Virus record (IMG/VR): IMGVR_UViG_2622736592_000004
Coordinates: 47,726-111,725 of that record
Length of the DNA: 64,000 bases
Source of the DNA: a virus
Lineage: Duplodnaviria; Caudoviricetes
Reading direction: 5' to 3' (one strand)
The first letter of the stretch is position 1; every line of letters starts with the position of its first letter. Both the position numbers and the translations under genes were made by a program. Below the pieces are notes generated by a model, which saw nothing but the letters and a program-made list of their open reading frames with translations, searched no databases and was not told the origin of the DNA. Shown one piece after another: positions 37,985 through 54,886 of this stretch.

Positions 37985-38170
37985 GTGGCGAAGGTGGAAC
38001 CGATCCAGGTCGAGGAAGCACGCAAGAACCTGGGGAAGTTGCTGGAGCAGGCCGAAGAGTCCGGAACCCACTTCGCCCTGTCCAAGTACGGCAAGACGAA
38101 GGGCTTCTTCGTGCCCACCGCCGACTACCGGCGGTACCGGGAACTCGACGGCGACCCCACCGACCTGTAG
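37985..38170 (+). CDS. Orphan Phd/YefM-fold protein, copy 1 (61 aa)
   Basis: 'IQVEEARKNLGKLLEQA..G....L.KYGK...FFVP' Phd N-terminal pattern. Confidence 0.75.
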   Translation: MAKVEPIQVEEARKNLGKLLEQAEESGTHFALSKYGKTKGFFVPTADYRRYRELDGDPTDL

Positions 38171-44442: not shown

Positions 44443-44978
44443 GCGGCCACCGCCTGCCATGCCGGCACCACATCCAGGTGCAGCACCCCACCCAACGCCC
44501 GCGTGTACTGCTGCAAACTCGCCACCATCGCCCCGTCCGGGAGGGCTTCCCGCCGGTACGCGGCCGACTCGCTGCACCCCATCCGCGCACCCATCTCGGC
44601 GCAGGTCAGGCCAGCGGCGCGGCGGATTCGGGCTAGGTTGTTGACGGCGATCCGCAAATCCAGCCGGTCTTCGTCGGCGGCGGTGGCGGGCTGCTGGGCG
44701 TCGTACAGGGCGGCGAGGGTGTCACCGTCGTCGGGCAGGGGAAGGCCGATGGTGGTGAGGTTCAGCCGGTAGCCGTAGATGCGCGCCCACGCCTGCACGG
44801 TGGCGACCTGCCAGTTGCGGCGGCGTTCCATCTGCGACAGGCCGAACTTGTTGCACCCGTAGCGGGCGGCGGCGGCCACTTGGCTGATTCCTCGGCGTTC
44901 CCGGTGGCGGCGGAGCGTGGCGGCGAGCCGTTCGCGTTCGCGCGTGTCGTCGCGGTGCAGATCCACAACGACGGTCAT
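44439..44978 (-). CDS. Tandem XRE-HTH protein
   Basis: Two HTH units: 'RERRGISQVAAAARYG' and 'RRAAGLTCAEMGARMG'. Confidence 0.75.
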   Translation of the reverse strand: MTVVVDLHRDDTRERERLAATLRRHRERRGISQVAAAARYGCNKFGLSQMERRRNWQVATVQAWARIYGYRLNLTTIGLPLPDDGDTLAALYDAQQPATAADEDRLDLRIAVNNLARIRRAAGLTCAEMGARMGCSESAAYRREALPDGAMVASLQQYTRALGGVLHLDVVPAWQAVAA

Positions 44979-45244
44979 CCGGTCACCGGCCCGGCGTCGG
45001 AGAACGCGGGGTCGAGCTTGCCTGGCTTGCGGGGCCGGTTACGCCACGCCTCACCGGCGGGCAGGATCTCGATGCGCCCGTCCAGGTGCAGCCGCACGTA
45101 GCCTTTGTCTTCCAGCTCGTACAGGGCGAGGTCGGGGTTGTGGATCCGGCCGGAGCTGTCGACGTAGCCGTAGGTGGCGGGGTCGCGGGTGATGCGGCCG
45201 TCGGTGATGGCGTCGTAGAGCCGTTCGAGCTTCTCGTATTTCAT
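44975..45244 (-). CDS. Hypothetical protein (wHTH-like)
   Basis: Starts MKYEKL; ATG 16 nt beyond the IS right end. Confidence 0.55.
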   Translation of the reverse strand: MKYEKLERLYDAITDGRITRDPATYGYVDSSGRIHNPDLALYELEDKGYVRLHLDGRIEILPAGEAWRNRPRKPGKLDPAFSDAGPVTG

Positions 45245-45450
45245 GGTGGTCCTGTCGGGTTGACGTCCTCCCCGCCCTGAAGAGGCGGGGATTCCCTCCC
45301 TGGCGTCCGCCGCAGCGGATCGCCTTGAGTTGGGTTCCTGTTTCATCGGCCGATGCCTCCTTGAGCGGAGGTCTGACTTAGCCTCCGCAGGCGTTTGCGG
45401 TCTCCGCCCGTCCGACGGCGACCTTGTGTCCTTCGGTTCGGATGTTGCGC
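45240..45450 (-). ncRNA. Predicted TnpB omega/reRNA; guide = flank CCCGACAGGACCACCATGAA
   Basis: Known TnpB architecture: scaffold overlaps the tnpB 3' end and right end, guide from the adjacent flank; 5' boundary approximate. Confidence 0.55.
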
Positions 45451-46535
45451 GCGGCGTTGATGTCGCGGTCGTGCGCCGTCTCGCAGTTGACGCATTTCCA
45501 TTCGCGGATCACGAGGGGCTTGGGGCCGTCCTTGAATCCGCAGGCGGAGCAGAGTTGCGAGGACGGGAAGAACCGGTCCACGCGGGCGAAGGTGCGGCCG
45601 TACCGGGCAGCCTTGTACTCCAACATGCCCACGAACTGGGACCAACCCGCGTCGTGTACGGATTTCGCAAGCCGGGTGCGGGCAAGACCCGACACGCACA
45701 GGTCCTCGACGTACACCGCTTGGTTGTCGCGGATGATCGCCGTGGACAGCTTGTGCTGCCAGTCCCGCCGGGTATCGGCCACCCGCGCATGAGCGCGTGC
45801 AACCTTCACGACGGCCTTCTTGCGGTTGTTCGACCCGCGCTGTTTGCGCGAGAGATCCTGCTGCAACCGGCGCAGCTTGCGGGCGGCCCGCCGTAGGAAC
45901 TTCGGCGCGGCGACCTTCGTGCCGTCGGATAGGACCGCGAAGTGGGTTAGCCCCAGGTCGATGCCGACCTCGGAGCCGACCGGCGGCAACGTCTCGTCCT
46001 CGGCCGTGGCCACCATGAACGACGCGAAGTATCGGCCAGCGGTGTCCTTGACCACAGTCACGGACGATGGGGTCGACGGCAACGCCCGCGACCAGCGCAC
46101 GGAGATTTCCCCGACCTTCGGCAGGCGCAACTTCCCGCCCTTGGTGATGGAGAAACAGTCGGATTTGGTGTACTTGGCGGTCTGCCGGTTGTCCTTTCGC
46201 GACCGGAATCGGGGCGCTCCAACCTTGGGCCCCTTGCGTTTTCCAGACAGTGAGTCGAAGTAGTTCCGATAGGCCGCGTCCAGGTCCCGTAACGCCTGCT
46301 GCATGACACCAACGGGGGCGTTGGATAGCCACGCCCGCTCGGGCGTCTTCTTCGCCTGCGTGATGAGCCGCTTGGACAGGTCCCCGGACTTCGGAAACGG
46401 CTGACCTGAAGCGTGGGCCTCCTCGCGTGCCCGCAGTCCGTCGTTGTACACCGTCCGCGCACACCCGAACGTCCGGGCGAGCGCTGTGCGCTGGCCGGGC
46501 GTCGGGTAGACGCGGAAGTTGTACCGAAGAAGCAT
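45378..46535 (-). CDS. tnpB: RNA-guided endonuclease TnpB
   Basis: 'YNFRVYPT', RuvC 'GIDLG', 'VEDL', 'DRDINAA', Zn 'CSAC...CVNC'; catalytic D-E-D intact. Confidence 0.95.
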   Translation of the reverse strand: MLLRYNFRVYPTPGQRTALARTFGCARTVYNDGLRAREEAHASGQPFPKSGDLSKRLITQAKKTPERAWLSNAPVGVMQQALRDLDAAYRNYFDSLSGKRKGPKVGAPRFRSRKDNRQTAKYTKSDCFSITKGGKLRLPKVGEISVRWSRALPSTPSSVTVVKDTAGRYFASFMVATAEDETLPPVGSEVGIDLGLTHFAVLSDGTKVAAPKFLRRAARKLRRLQQDLSRKQRGSNNRKKAVVKVARAHARVADTRRDWQHKLSTAIIRDNQAVYVEDLCVSGLARTRLAKSVHDAGWSQFVGMLEYKAARYGRTFARVDRFFPSSQLCSACGFKDGPKPLVIREWKCVNCETAHDRDINAARNIRTEGHKVAVGRAETANACGG

Positions 46536-46583
46536 GGTCCCATTGTAGCTCCATTATGGGACCACTGCCAGAATGGGACCATG
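46533..46583. promoter_or_regulatory. Mirror-symmetric divergent leaderless promoters with three ATGGGACCA boxes
   Basis: Perfect IR CATGGTCCCATT/AATGGGACCATG containing both start codons; TACAAT and CAGAAT each 6 nt before ATG. Confidence 0.7.
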
Positions 46584-46787
46584 ACGAAGCATGTGAACCT
46601 GCGGCTCCCGGACGACGTGCACGCACTCGCCGTGGCTGCTGCTGCGGCTGACGACCGCTCTCTGAACTCATGGCTGATCTCCGTAGTGCGACGTGCTGCC
46701 GAAGCCTCCGAGACGTCGGATCGCCCTGACGGCGATCCGACGTCTCCTGCCCCGCTACGCGGGAAGACGGATTCACCCCCGCCCTGA
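46581..46787 (+). CDS. Arc/HicB-like ribbon-helix-helix protein
   Basis: 'HVNLRLPDDVHALAVAAAAADDRSLNSWL'. Confidence 0.85.
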   Translation: MTKHVNLRLPDDVHALAVAAAAADDRSLNSWLISVVRRAAEASETSDRPDGDPTSPAPLRGKTDSPPP

Positions 46788-47339
46788 AGGCTGGGGAACC
46801 CTGCGACGCTTGTGGTCGCGGCGCTCGTCCTCGGACATGCCGCCGGCAACCCCGAACGGCTGGCTGCCGAGCGCCCACTCCAGGCACTCGTTCTTGACGG
46901 GGCAGCGGCGGCACACCGCCTTGGCCTGCTCGACCTGCAACAGGGCGGGACCGGAGGTGCCGACGGGGAAGAACAGCTCGGCAGGCTTGTCGCGGCAGGC
47001 ACCACGGGTGCGGAAGTCGTCCTCGGCGGCGGTGCGACGGATCTGGGCGACGACGCGCGGCTGCCCGGTGGGGTCGGCGGCCGGCGCGGACGGGGCCACC
47101 TGGACCGGTGCGGCCGGCGCGGGAGTGAGGCCGAGAACGGCGTACATGTCGTCACGCCACCGGCGGGCCGCCACCATTTCCGGGGTGGGGCGGGTGGGGT
47201 CGGCGTTGGTGGGCACGCCGTGCATGTCGCAGGCGATCTCGGAGAGGATGCGGCGGACGGCGGCGTCCCGGTCGGCCGTGCTGTTGGTGGGGAGGACGCG
47301 GGTGGTGGCGAGCGCCCCGTCGATGCTGAGCGCAGCCAT
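46773..47339 (-). CDS. whiB: WhiB-family (WhiB1/WblE-like) Fe-S regulator with N-terminal extension
   Basis: Four Cys in 'ACRD..ELFFPVG.SGPA...CRRCPV..EC', turn motif GVAGG; 3' end runs into the IS left end. Confidence 0.85.
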   Translation of the reverse strand: MAALSIDGALATTRVLPTNSTADRDAAVRRILSEIACDMHGVPTNADPTRPTPEMVAARRWRDDMYAVLGLTPAPAAPVQVAPSAPAADPTGQPRVVAQIRRTAAEDDFRTRGACRDKPAELFFPVGTSGPALLQVEQAKAVCRRCPVKNECLEWALGSQPFGVAGGMSEDERRDHKRRRVPQPSGRG

Positions 47340-48388
47340 CAGGCACCCACCGCCACACGCTCGGCCGGGAACTCGTCCCAGGTGCGCTCGTCTAGAAGCC
47401 GGCCGGCGCGCTTCTTGCCCATCCGCCACGGCTCGTCCCGGTCCCACGCCCCCGTGCCGTGCGCGATGTCCCAGTCCATGAACGTGCCCTCGGGCATCTG
47501 CGACGGCGGAACGTGGTCGCCCCACTGCTTGAAGAAGAACGCCGTTCCCGACTCCTGGCACTGGTCGCGCAGGTCCCGCACCCAAGCCGGGCTCATCGGC
47601 CGGGCACCCGGGCCGGACTCGCCGCCGGCGATGACCCAGTCGATGCGGGGCAGGTCGGTCAGGCGGTCCCTGTACTCCTCGGCGGGGTTGCCGACAGCCG
47701 GCCACCACTCTCCGGTGAGCGGGTTGTGGACTCCCGCGAATCCCTGCCGGGACGGCGGTGCCCAGTTGGACTGCTCCAGGTCGACGGGGCCGAGCAGGGG
47801 CTCCATCGACAGGAACCGCACGGCGGCCGGGGTGTCGAGCAGCGCGGGGATGCGCCGGTCGGCGGTCGCCTGGTCCTCGACGCTCGTGCCGAGCCACACG
47901 TTCGGCAGCGGCCACGGCGCGGCGGCGATTGCCTGCGCGGTAATCGCGTCCTGCTCGGTCAGCGGCGGGCGTCCCGGAATCACGGAGCCGACGACACGGG
48001 CCATGCGCTCGGGCCGCTTGGTGAGGATCTGGTAGGTGTGCTGCGGGGTAGCGGCCATGACCGCGAAGACGCGAGCGACGAACTCGGCGGGCACCCGGGC
48101 GTGGAACAGGTCCGACATCGAGTTGACGAACACGGTGCGCGGCTTGCGCCACGTCAGCGGCAGCCGCAGCGCGTCGGCGTGGACGGCCACGCCGAAGCCG
48201 GGGCCGGAGGTGCGCGGGTCGCCGTCGGTCTGGTACTTCGCCGAGCCCATCGCCTTGAGGCGCTTGGCGAGGGTGAGGGCGTAGCAGTTGTCGCAGCCGG
48301 CGGAGATCCGGTCGCACCCGGTGGTCGGGTTCCAGGTGACGCCCACCGTGCCTTCGCGGTGGGTCCACTCGATCGAGGTGTCAGCCAT
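47339..48388 (-). CDS. DUF5131 (phage Gp37/Gp68) protein
   Basis: 'TSIEWT', 'GCDRISAGCDNCYA', 'FVNSMSDLFH', 'GGESG', 'FFFKQWG'. Confidence 0.9.
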   Translation of the reverse strand: MADTSIEWTHREGTVGVTWNPTTGCDRISAGCDNCYALTLAKRLKAMGSAKYQTDGDPRTSGPGFGVAVHADALRLPLTWRKPRTVFVNSMSDLFHARVPAEFVARVFAVMAATPQHTYQILTKRPERMARVVGSVIPGRPPLTEQDAITAQAIAAAPWPLPNVWLGTSVEDQATADRRIPALLDTPAAVRFLSMEPLLGPVDLEQSNWAPPSRQGFAGVHNPLTGEWWPAVGNPAEEYRDRLTDLPRIDWVIAGGESGPGARPMSPAWVRDLRDQCQESGTAFFFKQWGDHVPPSQMPEGTFMDWDIAHGTGAWDRDEPWRMGKKRAGRLLDERTWDEFPAERVAVGA

Positions 48389-48590
48389 GGGTGGCCTCCT
48401 GCGTGGTTGGGGTGTGGTTGGTGAGGGTGGTGATCTGGACGGCAACAGCGAGCGCGGCCGACAGGTCCAAGGCGTCCAGCGGGTCGAACCGTCGGCCGTT
48501 GAGGTAGACCCAGCCGTCGGTGACAGTGACGGTGTCCCCGCGCTGGCCGACGAACGGCAGCCGCGAGCGGGTCAGAGTCCGCTCAGCCAC
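48381..48590 (-). CDS. Hypothetical protein
   Basis: Coupled small ORF. Confidence 0.5.
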   Translation of the reverse strand: MAERTLTRSRLPFVGQRGDTVTVTDGWVYLNGRRFDPLDALDLSAALAVAVQITTLTNHTPTTQEATHG

Positions 48591-54700: not shown

Positions 54701-54886
54701 GTGGCGAAGACGGAACGGATCGGTGTCGAGGCCGCCCGCAAGGTGCTCGGGCAGCAGCTCGACAAGGGCAAGGCCGATGGGCTCCACACGATCATCGCCA
54801 AGCGCGGCGCAGACCAAGGGGTGCTAGTCCCGATGGACTGGTATCGCCGAGCTCGTGAAGCCCTCGGTGATCCCACCGACCTGTAG
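54701..54886 (+). CDS. Orphan Phd/YefM-fold protein, copy 2 (61 aa)
   Basis: 'IGVEAARKVLGQQLD...HTIIAKRG...VLVP'; 31/61 identical to copy 1 without gaps. Confidence 0.75.
   Translation: MAKTERIGVEAARKVLGQQLDKGKADGLHTIIAKRGADQGVLVPMDWYRRAREALGDPTDL

What the first reader, a model, noticed from the sequence alone, without database searches (positions are those of the whole stretch)
45260..46810. TnpB element with an RHH repressor in place of tnpA, joined by mirror-image leaderless promoters
Seen: intact tnpB, IS608-like right end (GAAT guide, hairpin, terminal TCAA at 45260), a left-end hairpin, and no transposase. The slot where IS605 elements carry a divergent tnpA holds an Arc-like RHH gene. 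Only 45 bp separate the two start codons, which sit in a perfect 12-bp inverted repeat (46533-46544 / 46572-46583) with a third ATGGGACCA box at 46556-46564. Each ATG is 6 nt after a -10 hexamer. Inference: a self-regulated RNA-guided nuclease module. Its predicted guide (CCCGACAGGACCACCATGAA) would cut related phages carrying the empty whiB junction, acting as homing or inter-phage competition.
Basis: partly seen in the sequence, partly recalled or inferred. Interest (0 to 1): 0.7.

Follow-up and report, generated by a model that had tools for sequence, protein, structure and literature searches.

The report
Arc-regulated TnpB element in prophage
A transposase-less IS605-type mobile element sits in a prophage; it carries an intact RNA-guided nuclease (TnpB) and a small Arc-like repressor whose binding sites cover both genes' start codons, a kind of element shown experimentally in 2026, here stuck in place by a damaged left end.

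Summary
Window 45260-46802 is an IS200/IS605-family element with an intact ISDra2-like tnpB, a covarying omegaRNA region, a right end ...GTCAA shared by 26 relatives, and a divergent Arc/RHH gene where close relatives carry Y1 tnpA. Three ATGGGACCA boxes fill the 45-bp spacer and cover both start codons.

New here:
- The RHH gene lies inside the element, next to tnpB, in about 70 of 84 actinomycete loci. None of these has a tnpA in the slot.
- The box sequence co-varies with the RHH beta-strand, so the boxes are very probably its operator.
- The left end-RHH-operator cassette is 91% identical to that of a Streptomyces element whose TnpB is only 25% identical. The cassette has been swapped between elements.
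- The family inserts after YYACC (CACC core), the predicted TAM.
- In the window the CACC and the first ~12 nt of the left end are missing and whiB is fused to the left-end hairpin. The genome has no Y1 transposase and no second copy, so the element is immobile.

The idea of an Arc repressor of IS605 promoters, including arc+tnpB-only elements, was published in 2026 (bioRxiv 10.64898/2026.09.24.754181). This is therefore a new member of a known kind. Phage-targeting or homing is untested: no target site was found in 274 genomes of the genus.

The parts
45240..45259 (-). Predicted guide segment of the omegaRNA: the 20 nt just 3' of the right end (CCCGACAGGACCACCATGAA). It covers the RBS region and start codon of the downstream 90-aa phage gene.
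   Evidence: Position relative to the right-end terminus. Only the self site occurs in the own genome.
45260..45300 (-). Right end: GGGAAT, subterminal hairpin TCCCCGCC/GGCGGGGA (45269-45291), then GGACGTCAA terminus at 45260.
   Evidence: 26 related copies end in GTCAA followed by unrelated flanks, and the hairpin pairs covary. Hairpin fold.
45260..45489 (-). omegaRNA scaffold region, overlapping the 3' end of tnpB and running to the right end.
   Evidence: RNAalifold on 26 sequences: 19 of 38 pairs have compensatory double changes. Weak Rfam HgcC match at 45248-45385, E 0.026, below the gathering score.
45378..46535 (-). tnpB, 385 aa, an ISDra2-like RNA-guided nuclease with intact RuvC D193/E277/D358 and a zinc finger.
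46533..46583 (.). Divergent control region: both start codons, three ATGGGACCA boxes (46535-46543 inverted, 46556-46564, 46573-46581), and -10-like TACAAT (46542-46547, - strand) and CAGAAT (46569-46574, + strand).
   Evidence: Family conservation and box/beta-strand covariation.
46581..46787 (+). Arc-like ribbon-helix-helix gene, 68 aa. The fold spans residues 1-46. The tail 47-68 is read through left-end DNA and is predicted disordered.
46710..46746 (.). Perfect 16-bp hairpin of the left-end region, lying inside the RHH 3' tail. It is also present in relatives without RHH. It is probably the terminator inherited from the tnpA slot.
   Evidence: I4. (z -5.5 and -5.9). Searches show conservation with compensatory changes.
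46777..46802 (-). Left-end subterminal hairpin (46777-46796) plus 6 nt (AGGGTT on the - strand). The family's first ~12 nt of the left end and the CACC target are missing.
46803..47147 (-). Phage whiB, fused to the left end. Its last ~10 codons, stop and terminator hairpin are replaced by RVPQPSGRG* read from the left-end hairpin (stop codon at 46773-46775). The junction lies at 46802/46803, +/-2 nt. The whiB start is uncertain.
   Evidence: five empty-site relatives.
44975..45247 (-). Downstream 90-aa phage gene of unknown function. Its start codon lies inside the predicted guide.

Best explanation
This is a non-autonomous IS200/IS605-family element of the ISDra2-like TnpB lineage. It is carried by a prophage of a ~7.9-Mb actinomycete, probably Micromonospora. 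The slot that close relatives use for the Y1 transposase gene holds an Arc-type ribbon-helix-helix gene.

Shown by sequence:
- tnpB is intact and the omegaRNA scaffold and right end are conserved.
- RHH lies inside the element.
- Three pseudo-palindromic ATGG-NN-CCAT boxes overlap the start codons and the -10-like hexamers of both divergent genes, which appear to be leaderless.

Inferred, from covariation and from published experiments on homologous systems: RHH dimers bind the boxes and shut off tnpB and their own gene together. This keeps the RNA-guided nuclease at a low, self-limited level.

The element entered after a CACC in the whiB/small-gene intergenic region. CACC is the family's target and the predicted TAM. 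A later ~100-nt deletion removed the whiB tail, its terminator, the CACC and ~12 nt of the left end. With no Y1 TnpA in the genome and no second copy, the element cannot move here.

If expressed, TnpB-omegaRNA would cut only DNA carrying 5'-(YY)ACC + CCCGACAGGACCACC..., that is, the uninterrupted site of a near-identical phage.
For: Identity of the parts.

Ends:
- 26 copies share the right end ...GTCAA followed by unrelated flanks.
- About 55 copies, plus three near-identical copies in one MAG, start the left end right after YYACC.

RHH-tnpB linkage:
- RHH has more than 110 homologue clusters.
- ~70 of 84 loci have a divergent tnpB 17-45 bp from the RHH start. None has tnpA in the slot.

Operator:
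- Both start codons sit in inverted boxes.
- The box core changes with the RHH beta-strand: (T)KHVNLRL with GGGACC/GGTCCC, VKFTLRI with GACGGC/GCCGTC, IRFSL with AGCGTC/GATGCC, xKLNLRL with GGGGCC/GGCCCC, xQLTLRL with GGTGTC.
- Boxes are enriched in the window: 3 found against 0.42 expected, all within 47 bp.

RHH fold.

Experiments on homologous systems: ChIP-seq, reporter repression and mutagenesis of Arc in IS605 elements, including arc+tnpB-only elements.

Insertion site and deletion: five empty-site relatives carry whiB ...KRRGGLRVLRA*, a terminator hairpin, then (A/G)CACC directly in front of the sequence homologous to the guide.

Immobility:
- No PF01797 match in the own genome, which is 100% complete by marker genes.
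- Single copy.
- Three of four other genomes with such elements hold 7-9 Y1 tnpA genes, so mobilisation in trans is plausible elsewhere.
Against: - No expression, binding or cleavage data exist for this element.
- The RHH promoter has a weak -10 (CAGAAT) and no -35. The promoter scan calls only the tnpB promoter.
- Leaderless starts are inferred from spacing alone.
- The end hairpins are not exceptional in folding energy for this G+C content (z -1.2 and -0.8). Their support is comparative.
- The deletion scenario rests on relatives whose small-gene protein is only 48-81% identical, not on the true ancestral site. The window does have GACC at the spacing where the family has CACC.
- Homology of this RHH to the Arc proteins tested in the preprint was not checked directly.
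Confidence: 0.8

Rival explanations
1. Toxin-antitoxin-like pair. The RHH acts mainly as a protein inhibitor (antitoxin) of the TnpB nuclease (toxin), as proposed for archaeal RHH/MazE-TnpB loci. DNA binding would serve only conditional autoregulation.
For: - Databases name the RHH 'HicB family antitoxin'.
- Its best fold matches include the AtaR, TacA and KacA antitoxins.
- The PNAS 2023 paper proposes RHH-TnpB TA modules from co-folding.
- The 2026 preprint cites a proposal that Arc contacts TnpB-omegaRNA.
Against: - The same RHH cassette (91% nt identity) serves TnpBs that are only 25% identical. This argues against a specific protein-protein interface.
- The structured part of the RHH is only the 46-aa DNA-binding fold. 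The tail is left-end read-through and is predicted disordered.
- The archaeal cases are co-directional operons with a rearranged catalytic site. Here the genes are divergent and the triad is canonical.
- There is no HicA gene and no HicB N-terminal domain.
Confidence: 0.08
2. Inert relic. The copy is a recently immobilised, decaying insertion with no present role for phage or host. Its intact genes reflect recent arrival only.
For: - The left end is truncated, there is no TnpA in the genome, and the element is single-copy.
- No target for the guide was found in 275 genomes.
- Many related copies are visibly decaying: stops in the tnpB of L081, L139 and L145; truncated RHH or tnpB in L031, L080 and L112.
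Against: Both ORFs, the catalytic residues, all three boxes (the middle box is degenerate in most relatives) and the omegaRNA stems are intact in the window. Intactness cannot separate recent arrival from selection.
Confidence: 0.3
3. The left end is intact. The element inserted inside whiB after GACC, and the missing ~100 nt were lost on the right-end side.
For: GCGACC lies 17 nt before the left-end hairpin, the spacing at which the family has TCCACC.
Against: - The 9 nt after it (AAGCGTCGC) are identical to whiB of relative L060, are in frame (KRR), and match the left-end consensus TTGCTTTCGGGC at only 2-3 positions.
- The right-end flank starts exactly where the empty-site relatives have CACC.
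- G at position -4 of the target is rare in ~55 copies.
Confidence: 0.05

Closest known systems
Arc-containing IS605-family elements (Moon, Zedaveinyte, Wiegand & Sternberg, bioRxiv 10.64898/2026.09.24.754181; first noted in Zedaveinyte et al., bioRxiv 10.1101/2023.11.20.567912)
   Same: - A small RHH gene lies inside the element, divergent from tnpB.
- Repeated binding motifs sit in the intergenic bidirectional promoter.
- Arc+tnpB-only versions exist.
- The function shown there is repression of the tnpB promoter.
   Different: - Those tested come from Firmicutes (Petroclostridium, Clostridium), and many also keep tnpA beside arc.
- Here the hosts are actinomycetes and the RHH occupies the tnpA slot in all 84 loci examined.
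- Here both genes look leaderless, with their start codons inside the operator half-sites.
- Here the cassette is shared by two TnpB lineages that are ~27% identical.
- Direct homology to their Arc clade was not tested.
ISDra2 (Deinococcus radiodurans) TnpA/TnpB/omegaRNA
   Same: - TnpB aligns over its full length (E 1e-75).
- It has a canonical RuvC triad and zinc finger.
- The omegaRNA overlaps the 3' end of tnpB and ends at the right end, with the guide read from the flank.
   Different: - There is no tnpA.
- The predicted TAM is YYACC instead of TTGAT.
- An RHH gene and operator are present.
- The left end is truncated in this copy.
IS608 (Helicobacter pylori) end architecture
   Same: - Subterminal imperfect hairpins lie at both ends on one strand.
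- GAAT lies 5' of the right hairpin, and a TCAA terminus lies ~9-10 nt 3' of it.
- The left cleavage site lies ~18 nt 5' of the left hairpin.
- Insertion occurs 3' of a short fixed target without duplication.
   Different: - The target is (YY)ACC, not TTAC.
- The resemblance of GAAT/TCAA to IS608's guide and cleavage tetranucleotides comes from memory of the literature. It was not tested.
Archaeal RHH/MazE-TnpB loci (Altae-Tran et al., PNAS 2023, PMC10691335)
   Same: An RHH-family gene lies next to a tnpB without a transposase.
   Different: - Those loci are co-directional operons.
- Their TnpB has a rearranged RuvC-III (D to H).
- They are non-mobile and are proposed to be toxin-antitoxin pairs.
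- Here the genes are divergent, the catalytic site is canonical, and the pair lies within IS ends.

Membership tests
IS200/IS605 family insertion sequence | Subterminal hairpins at both ends on the same strand, with no terminal inverted repeats. | tested here: met
   Right hairpin at 45269-45291 and left hairpin at 46777-46796, both on the - strand. Both are conserved with compensatory changes.
IS200/IS605 family insertion sequence | Insertion 3' of a short specific target, without target duplication. | tested here: met
   For the family, YYACC precedes the left end in ~55 copies and flanks are otherwise unrelated. In the window copy itself the target is deleted.
IS200/IS605 family insertion sequence | Y1 (HUH) transposase TnpA encoded in the element. 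| tested here: not met
   No tnpA in the element or in the genome. This makes it a non-autonomous, IS1341-like member. Close relatives at 65-73% TnpB identity do carry it.
IS200/IS605 family insertion sequence | Complete left end with its cleavage site. | tested here: not met
   The first ~12 nt of the left end and the CACC are replaced by whiB codons.
TnpB-omegaRNA (OMEGA) RNA-guided nuclease | RuvC D-E-D triad and zinc finger. | tested here: met
   D193, E277, D358; C329/C332/C348/C351. These are invariant or at least 90% conserved among 22 relatives. Full-length match to ISDra2 TnpB structures.
TnpB-omegaRNA (OMEGA) RNA-guided nuclease | Structured RNA overlapping the 3' end of tnpB and ending at the right end. 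| tested here: met
   19 of 38 consensus pairs have compensatory changes. The HgcC match is below the Rfam threshold. The transcript itself has not been observed.
TnpB-omegaRNA (OMEGA) RNA-guided nuclease | TAM-dependent, guide-dependent DNA cleavage. | not testable with these tools
   The TAM is predicted only from insertion sites (YYACC).
Arc/MetJ ribbon-helix-helix superfamily | N-terminal beta-strand followed by two helices. | tested here: met
   Pfam HicB 26.5 bits (cut-off 21) and Arc 21.3 bits (cut-off 20.4). In the AF2 model residues 11-40 have pLDDT above 90. P22 Arc matches at TM 0.73-0.88 normalised to the target.
Arc/MetJ ribbon-helix-helix superfamily | Binds repeated or inverted operator boxes through the beta-strand. 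| tested here: inconclusive
   Box/beta-strand covariation across the family is strong indirect support. There is no binding assay.
Arc-containing IS605 elements (2026 preprint) | The arc gene lies within the IS boundaries next to tnpB, with motifs in the intergenic promoter. | tested here: met
Arc-containing IS605 elements (2026 preprint) | Sequence membership in the Arc clade studied there. | not tested
   Their sequences were not on hand.
HicAB type II toxin-antitoxin (database name of the RHH homologues) | Adjacent HicA toxin and the HicB N-terminal RNase H-like domain. | tested here: not met
   The neighbours are tnpB and IS ends. The protein is only the 46-aa RHH fold plus a disordered tail. 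The Pfam 'HicB' hit covers only the C-terminal RHH part of that model.

The most novel reading that the evidence does not exclude
A prophage has fixed a TnpB-omegaRNA unit as a one-guide weapon or drive. The unit can no longer excise, because the left end is truncated and there is no TnpA. The Arc repressor keeps it quiet in the lysogen. On superinfection or co-infection by a sibling phage with the uninterrupted CACC+CCCGACAGGACC... site, it cuts that genome. The outcome would be exclusion of the rival, or copying of the element into it by recombination. In addition, the left end-Arc-operator cassette would be a portable control module that recombines, at its own operator, onto unrelated tnpB genes.
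Probability: 0.15. Interest if true: 0.65.

Novelty: new member of a known kind. Interest (0 to 1): 0.35.

Why it matters
It extends the newly described Arc control of IS605 elements to a large actinomycete clade: more than 110 protein clusters, currently annotated as HicB or Arc antitoxins.

It supplies comparative evidence that experiments have not given:
- The operator co-varies with the recognition strand.
- The operator contains both leaderless start codons.
- The whole control cassette moves between distant TnpB lineages.

It predicts a G+C-rich TAM (YYACC) for ISDra2-like TnpBs. It also corrects the database names of these genes. The window copy itself is an immobilised insertion of limited interest, unless the phage-targeting idea proves true.

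Tried and rejected
- Other copies or another RHH homologue in the own genome: none found.
- Phage collection search of the whole region: it gave only a distant tnpA+tnpB element in Saccharomonospora phage PIS 136, plus hits to the neighbouring DUF5131 gene.
- RHH protein search in 400 genomes of the host's family: only weak hits, the best 59% identical with a stop codon. The cassette is therefore foreign to this family and common in Streptomyces.
- Guide 20-mer in the own genome and in 274 genus genomes: only 2-3-mismatch hits, at the rate of the reversed-pattern control.
- Rfam: no match over threshold.
- Folding energy of the end hairpins alone: not distinctive.
- Reading the left junction as an intact left end after GACC was rejected (see rivals).
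- I tried to derive IS608-style guide/cleavage pairing rules for CACC from the 4 nt before the left hairpin. GGTG is its reverse complement in RHH-type copies, but not in tnpA-type copies or in the window, so I left this unresolved.

The tallies include two unpublished genomes (G106, G138). No specific claim rests on them.
Full report
**What is there**

Reading 44900-47300 and listing ORFs shows the following.
- On the minus strand, a 385-aa ORF (45378-46535) carries the three Pfam domains of TnpB.
- On the plus strand, 45 bp from its start codon, a 68-aa ORF (46581-46787) matches the ribbon-helix-helix (RHH) models HicB and Arc above their curated cut-offs.
- A phage whiB runs into the element from the right, and a 90-aa phage gene starts 13 nt beyond its left edge.
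- The window is a prophage: tape measure, portal, large terminase, head protease and DnaB are all found.

The TnpB aligns end to end with the solved ISDra2 TnpB (E 1e-75). It keeps the RuvC triad (D193, E277, D358) and both CxxC pairs, which are invariant or nearly so in 22 relatives.

The spacer details are exact.
- The 12-bp inverted repeat is perfect.
- ATGGGACCA occurs three times in 64 kb, against 0.42 expected, and all three copies lie within 47 bp.
- TACAAT and CAGAAT each end 6 nt before a start codon. A consensus scan calls only the tnpB promoter.

**Right end and guide RNA**

Twenty-six related copies from other genomes all end ...GGGAAT-hairpin-(A/G)G(A/G)NNGTCAA and then continue into unrelated DNA.

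The 230 nt before the terminus give a consensus structure in which 19 of 38 pairs show compensatory double changes. Rfam gives only a sub-threshold match to HgcC.

**The RHH gene belongs to the element, and to a large family**

The element is single-copy in its own genome.

In the host's family, the TnpBs closest to this one (65-73% identical) are canonical elements. They have a divergent Y1 tnpA whose start lies 25-30 nt from the tnpB start. In some the tnpA is decayed, in some it is lost, and in three a Phd/YefM-fold gene stands in its place.

The RHH has more than 110 homologue clusters. Nearly all come from Streptomyces and other actinomycetes outside the host's family, and they are annotated as HicB, Arc or YlcI proteins.
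- In six loci fetched by identity, and in 80 fetched from reference genomes, about 70 of 84 have a divergent tnpB 17-45 bp from the RHH start.
- None of these loci has a tnpA in the slot.

These TnpBs fall into two lineages. One is the window's (54-79% identity). The other is only about 27% identical. The RHH closest to the window's (91%) sits beside a TnpB of the second lineage. At the DNA level, window 46533-46790 is 91.5% identical to that Streptomyces locus. The similarity starts exactly at the tnpB start codon. The best whole-element relative is 78% identical. The cassette of left end, RHH and operator has therefore been exchanged between distant elements, with the breakpoint at the operator.

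**The boxes are very probably the RHH operator**

Across the family, both start codons lie in inverted boxes of the form ATGG-NN-CCAT. A TA-rich hexamer ends 6 nt before each start.
- A short form has 26 bp (28 bp in the tally) and two boxes.
- The window's long form has 45 bp and three boxes. It looks like a 17-bp duplication of box plus hexamer.

The box core changes together with the N-terminal strand of the protein:

| RHH strand | Box core |
|---|---|
| (T)KHVNLRL | GGGACC/GGTCCC |
| VKFTLRI | GACGGC/GCCGTC |
| IRFSL | AGCGTC/GATGCC |
| xKLNLRL | GGGGCC/GGCCCC |
| xQLTLRL | GGTGTC |

The AF2 model gives a confident strand-helix-helix for residues 1-46. Its best structural matches are P22 Arc and RHH antitoxins. 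The tail (47-68) is disordered. It is simply the left-end DNA read in frame, including a perfect 16-bp hairpin (46710-46746, z about -5.5). That hairpin is conserved with compensatory changes and is also present in relatives without RHH.

**Left end, target and what happened in the window**

Three near-identical copies in one metagenome-assembled genome, and about 55 independent copies, begin their similarity at YYACC, most often TCCACC. Then come ~18 nt (TTGCTTTCGGGCAGGGTG) and the hairpin. The tnpA-bearing relatives have GCTACC at that place. This is the family's insertion target and hence the predicted TAM.

The window keeps only AGGGTT before the hairpin. The preceding bases (…CAC AAG CGT CGC) are whiB codons. 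They are 9/9 identical to a relative's whiB and are in frame with its conserved KRR.

Five related prophages with no insertion show this layout:
- whiB ending …KR(R/K)GGLRVLRA*;
- a terminator hairpin;
- (A/G)CACC immediately before the sequence homologous to the window's right flank.

The simplest history is insertion after that CACC, followed by a deletion of about 100 nt. The deletion removed the whiB tail, the terminator, the CACC and ~12 nt of the left end. It gave whiB a new tail, RVPQPSGRG*, read from the hairpin.

The genome has no Y1 transposase. Three of four other genomes with such elements have 7-9 Y1 tnpA genes. The window copy is therefore immobile.

**Function**

The best-supported mechanism is autoregulated repression. 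RHH dimers on the boxes occlude both leaderless promoters, so the nuclease and its repressor are kept low together.

This matches experiments published in September 2026 on Arc proteins of IS605 elements from Firmicutes. Those include ChIP-seq peaks on the intergenic promoter, reporter repression, and loss of repression on mutating the strand residues or the motif. Elements with arc and tnpB alone were among those tested. The association was first noted in 2023. A toxin-antitoxin reading was proposed for archaeal RHH-TnpB operons.

The cassette serves TnpBs that are only 25% identical, which speaks against a specific RHH-TnpB protein contact. A co-folding test was not available.

**The phage-targeting idea**

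The guide matches only its own flank in the genome, and that site lacks the TAM. In 274 other genomes of the genus there is nothing better than 2-3 mismatches, at the rate of the control pattern. The nearest empty sites differ from the guide by indels. Cutting of sibling phages, or homing into them, is therefore possible in principle but has no support here.

**Verdict**

The regulatory interpretation is supported and already known in kind. The copy is an immobilised new member of the Arc-bearing IS605 elements.

The useful additions are:
- the operator/strand covariation;
- the start-codon-in-operator design;
- the cassette exchange between TnpB lineages;
- the YYACC target;
- the left-end deletion that fused whiB to the element.

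Noticed in passing
L017:2507-2677 (also L021, L027): In three genomes of the host's family, a Phd/YefM-fold gene (Pfam PF02604, at its cut-off) occupies the tnpA slot next to a window-like tnpB. Three GTAC cores lie in the 35-bp spacer. This is a second kind of small 'antitoxin-fold' regulator in that slot.
   Followed up: partly
window 46710-46746: A perfect 16-bp hairpin with a 5-nt loop lies inside the RHH 3' tail (z about -5.5 on either strand). It is conserved with compensatory changes across the family and is present in left ends without RHH. It is probably the terminator of the tnpA slot. Because of it, the RHH tail (…DRPDGDP…PAPLRG…) looks conserved as protein.
   Followed up: partly
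window 46533-46790 versus L032:3953-4210: The left end-RHH-operator cassette is 91.5% identical to a Streptomyces element whose tnpB is unrelated at the DNA level (25% aa). The similarity starts exactly at the tnpB start codon, so the recombination breakpoint lies at the operator.
   Followed up: yes
window 46773-47147: The phage whiB has lost its last ~10 codons and its terminator, and ends in 9 codons read from the IS left-end hairpin. Whether this WhiB still works is unknown.
   Followed up: partly
window 37985-38170 and 54701-54886: Earlier notes of this scan report two toxin-less Phd-fold genes on the plus strand of the same prophage. I did not examine them. They may relate to the Phd-fold genes seen in tnpA slots of related elements.
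   Followed up: no
L074, L075, L082 (one MAG, CAVQGD01): Three near-identical RHH-tnpB copies (second TnpB lineage) sit at different sites of one genome, which also holds eight Y1 tnpA genes. This indicates recent mobilisation in trans.
   Followed up: partly
window 47339-48445: The DUF5131 (phrog_2045) gene next to whiB has 74-79% nucleotide identity over ~130-140 nt with many Mycobacterium, Gordonia, cyanobacterial and rhizobial phages. That is an unusually conserved stretch.
   Followed up: no
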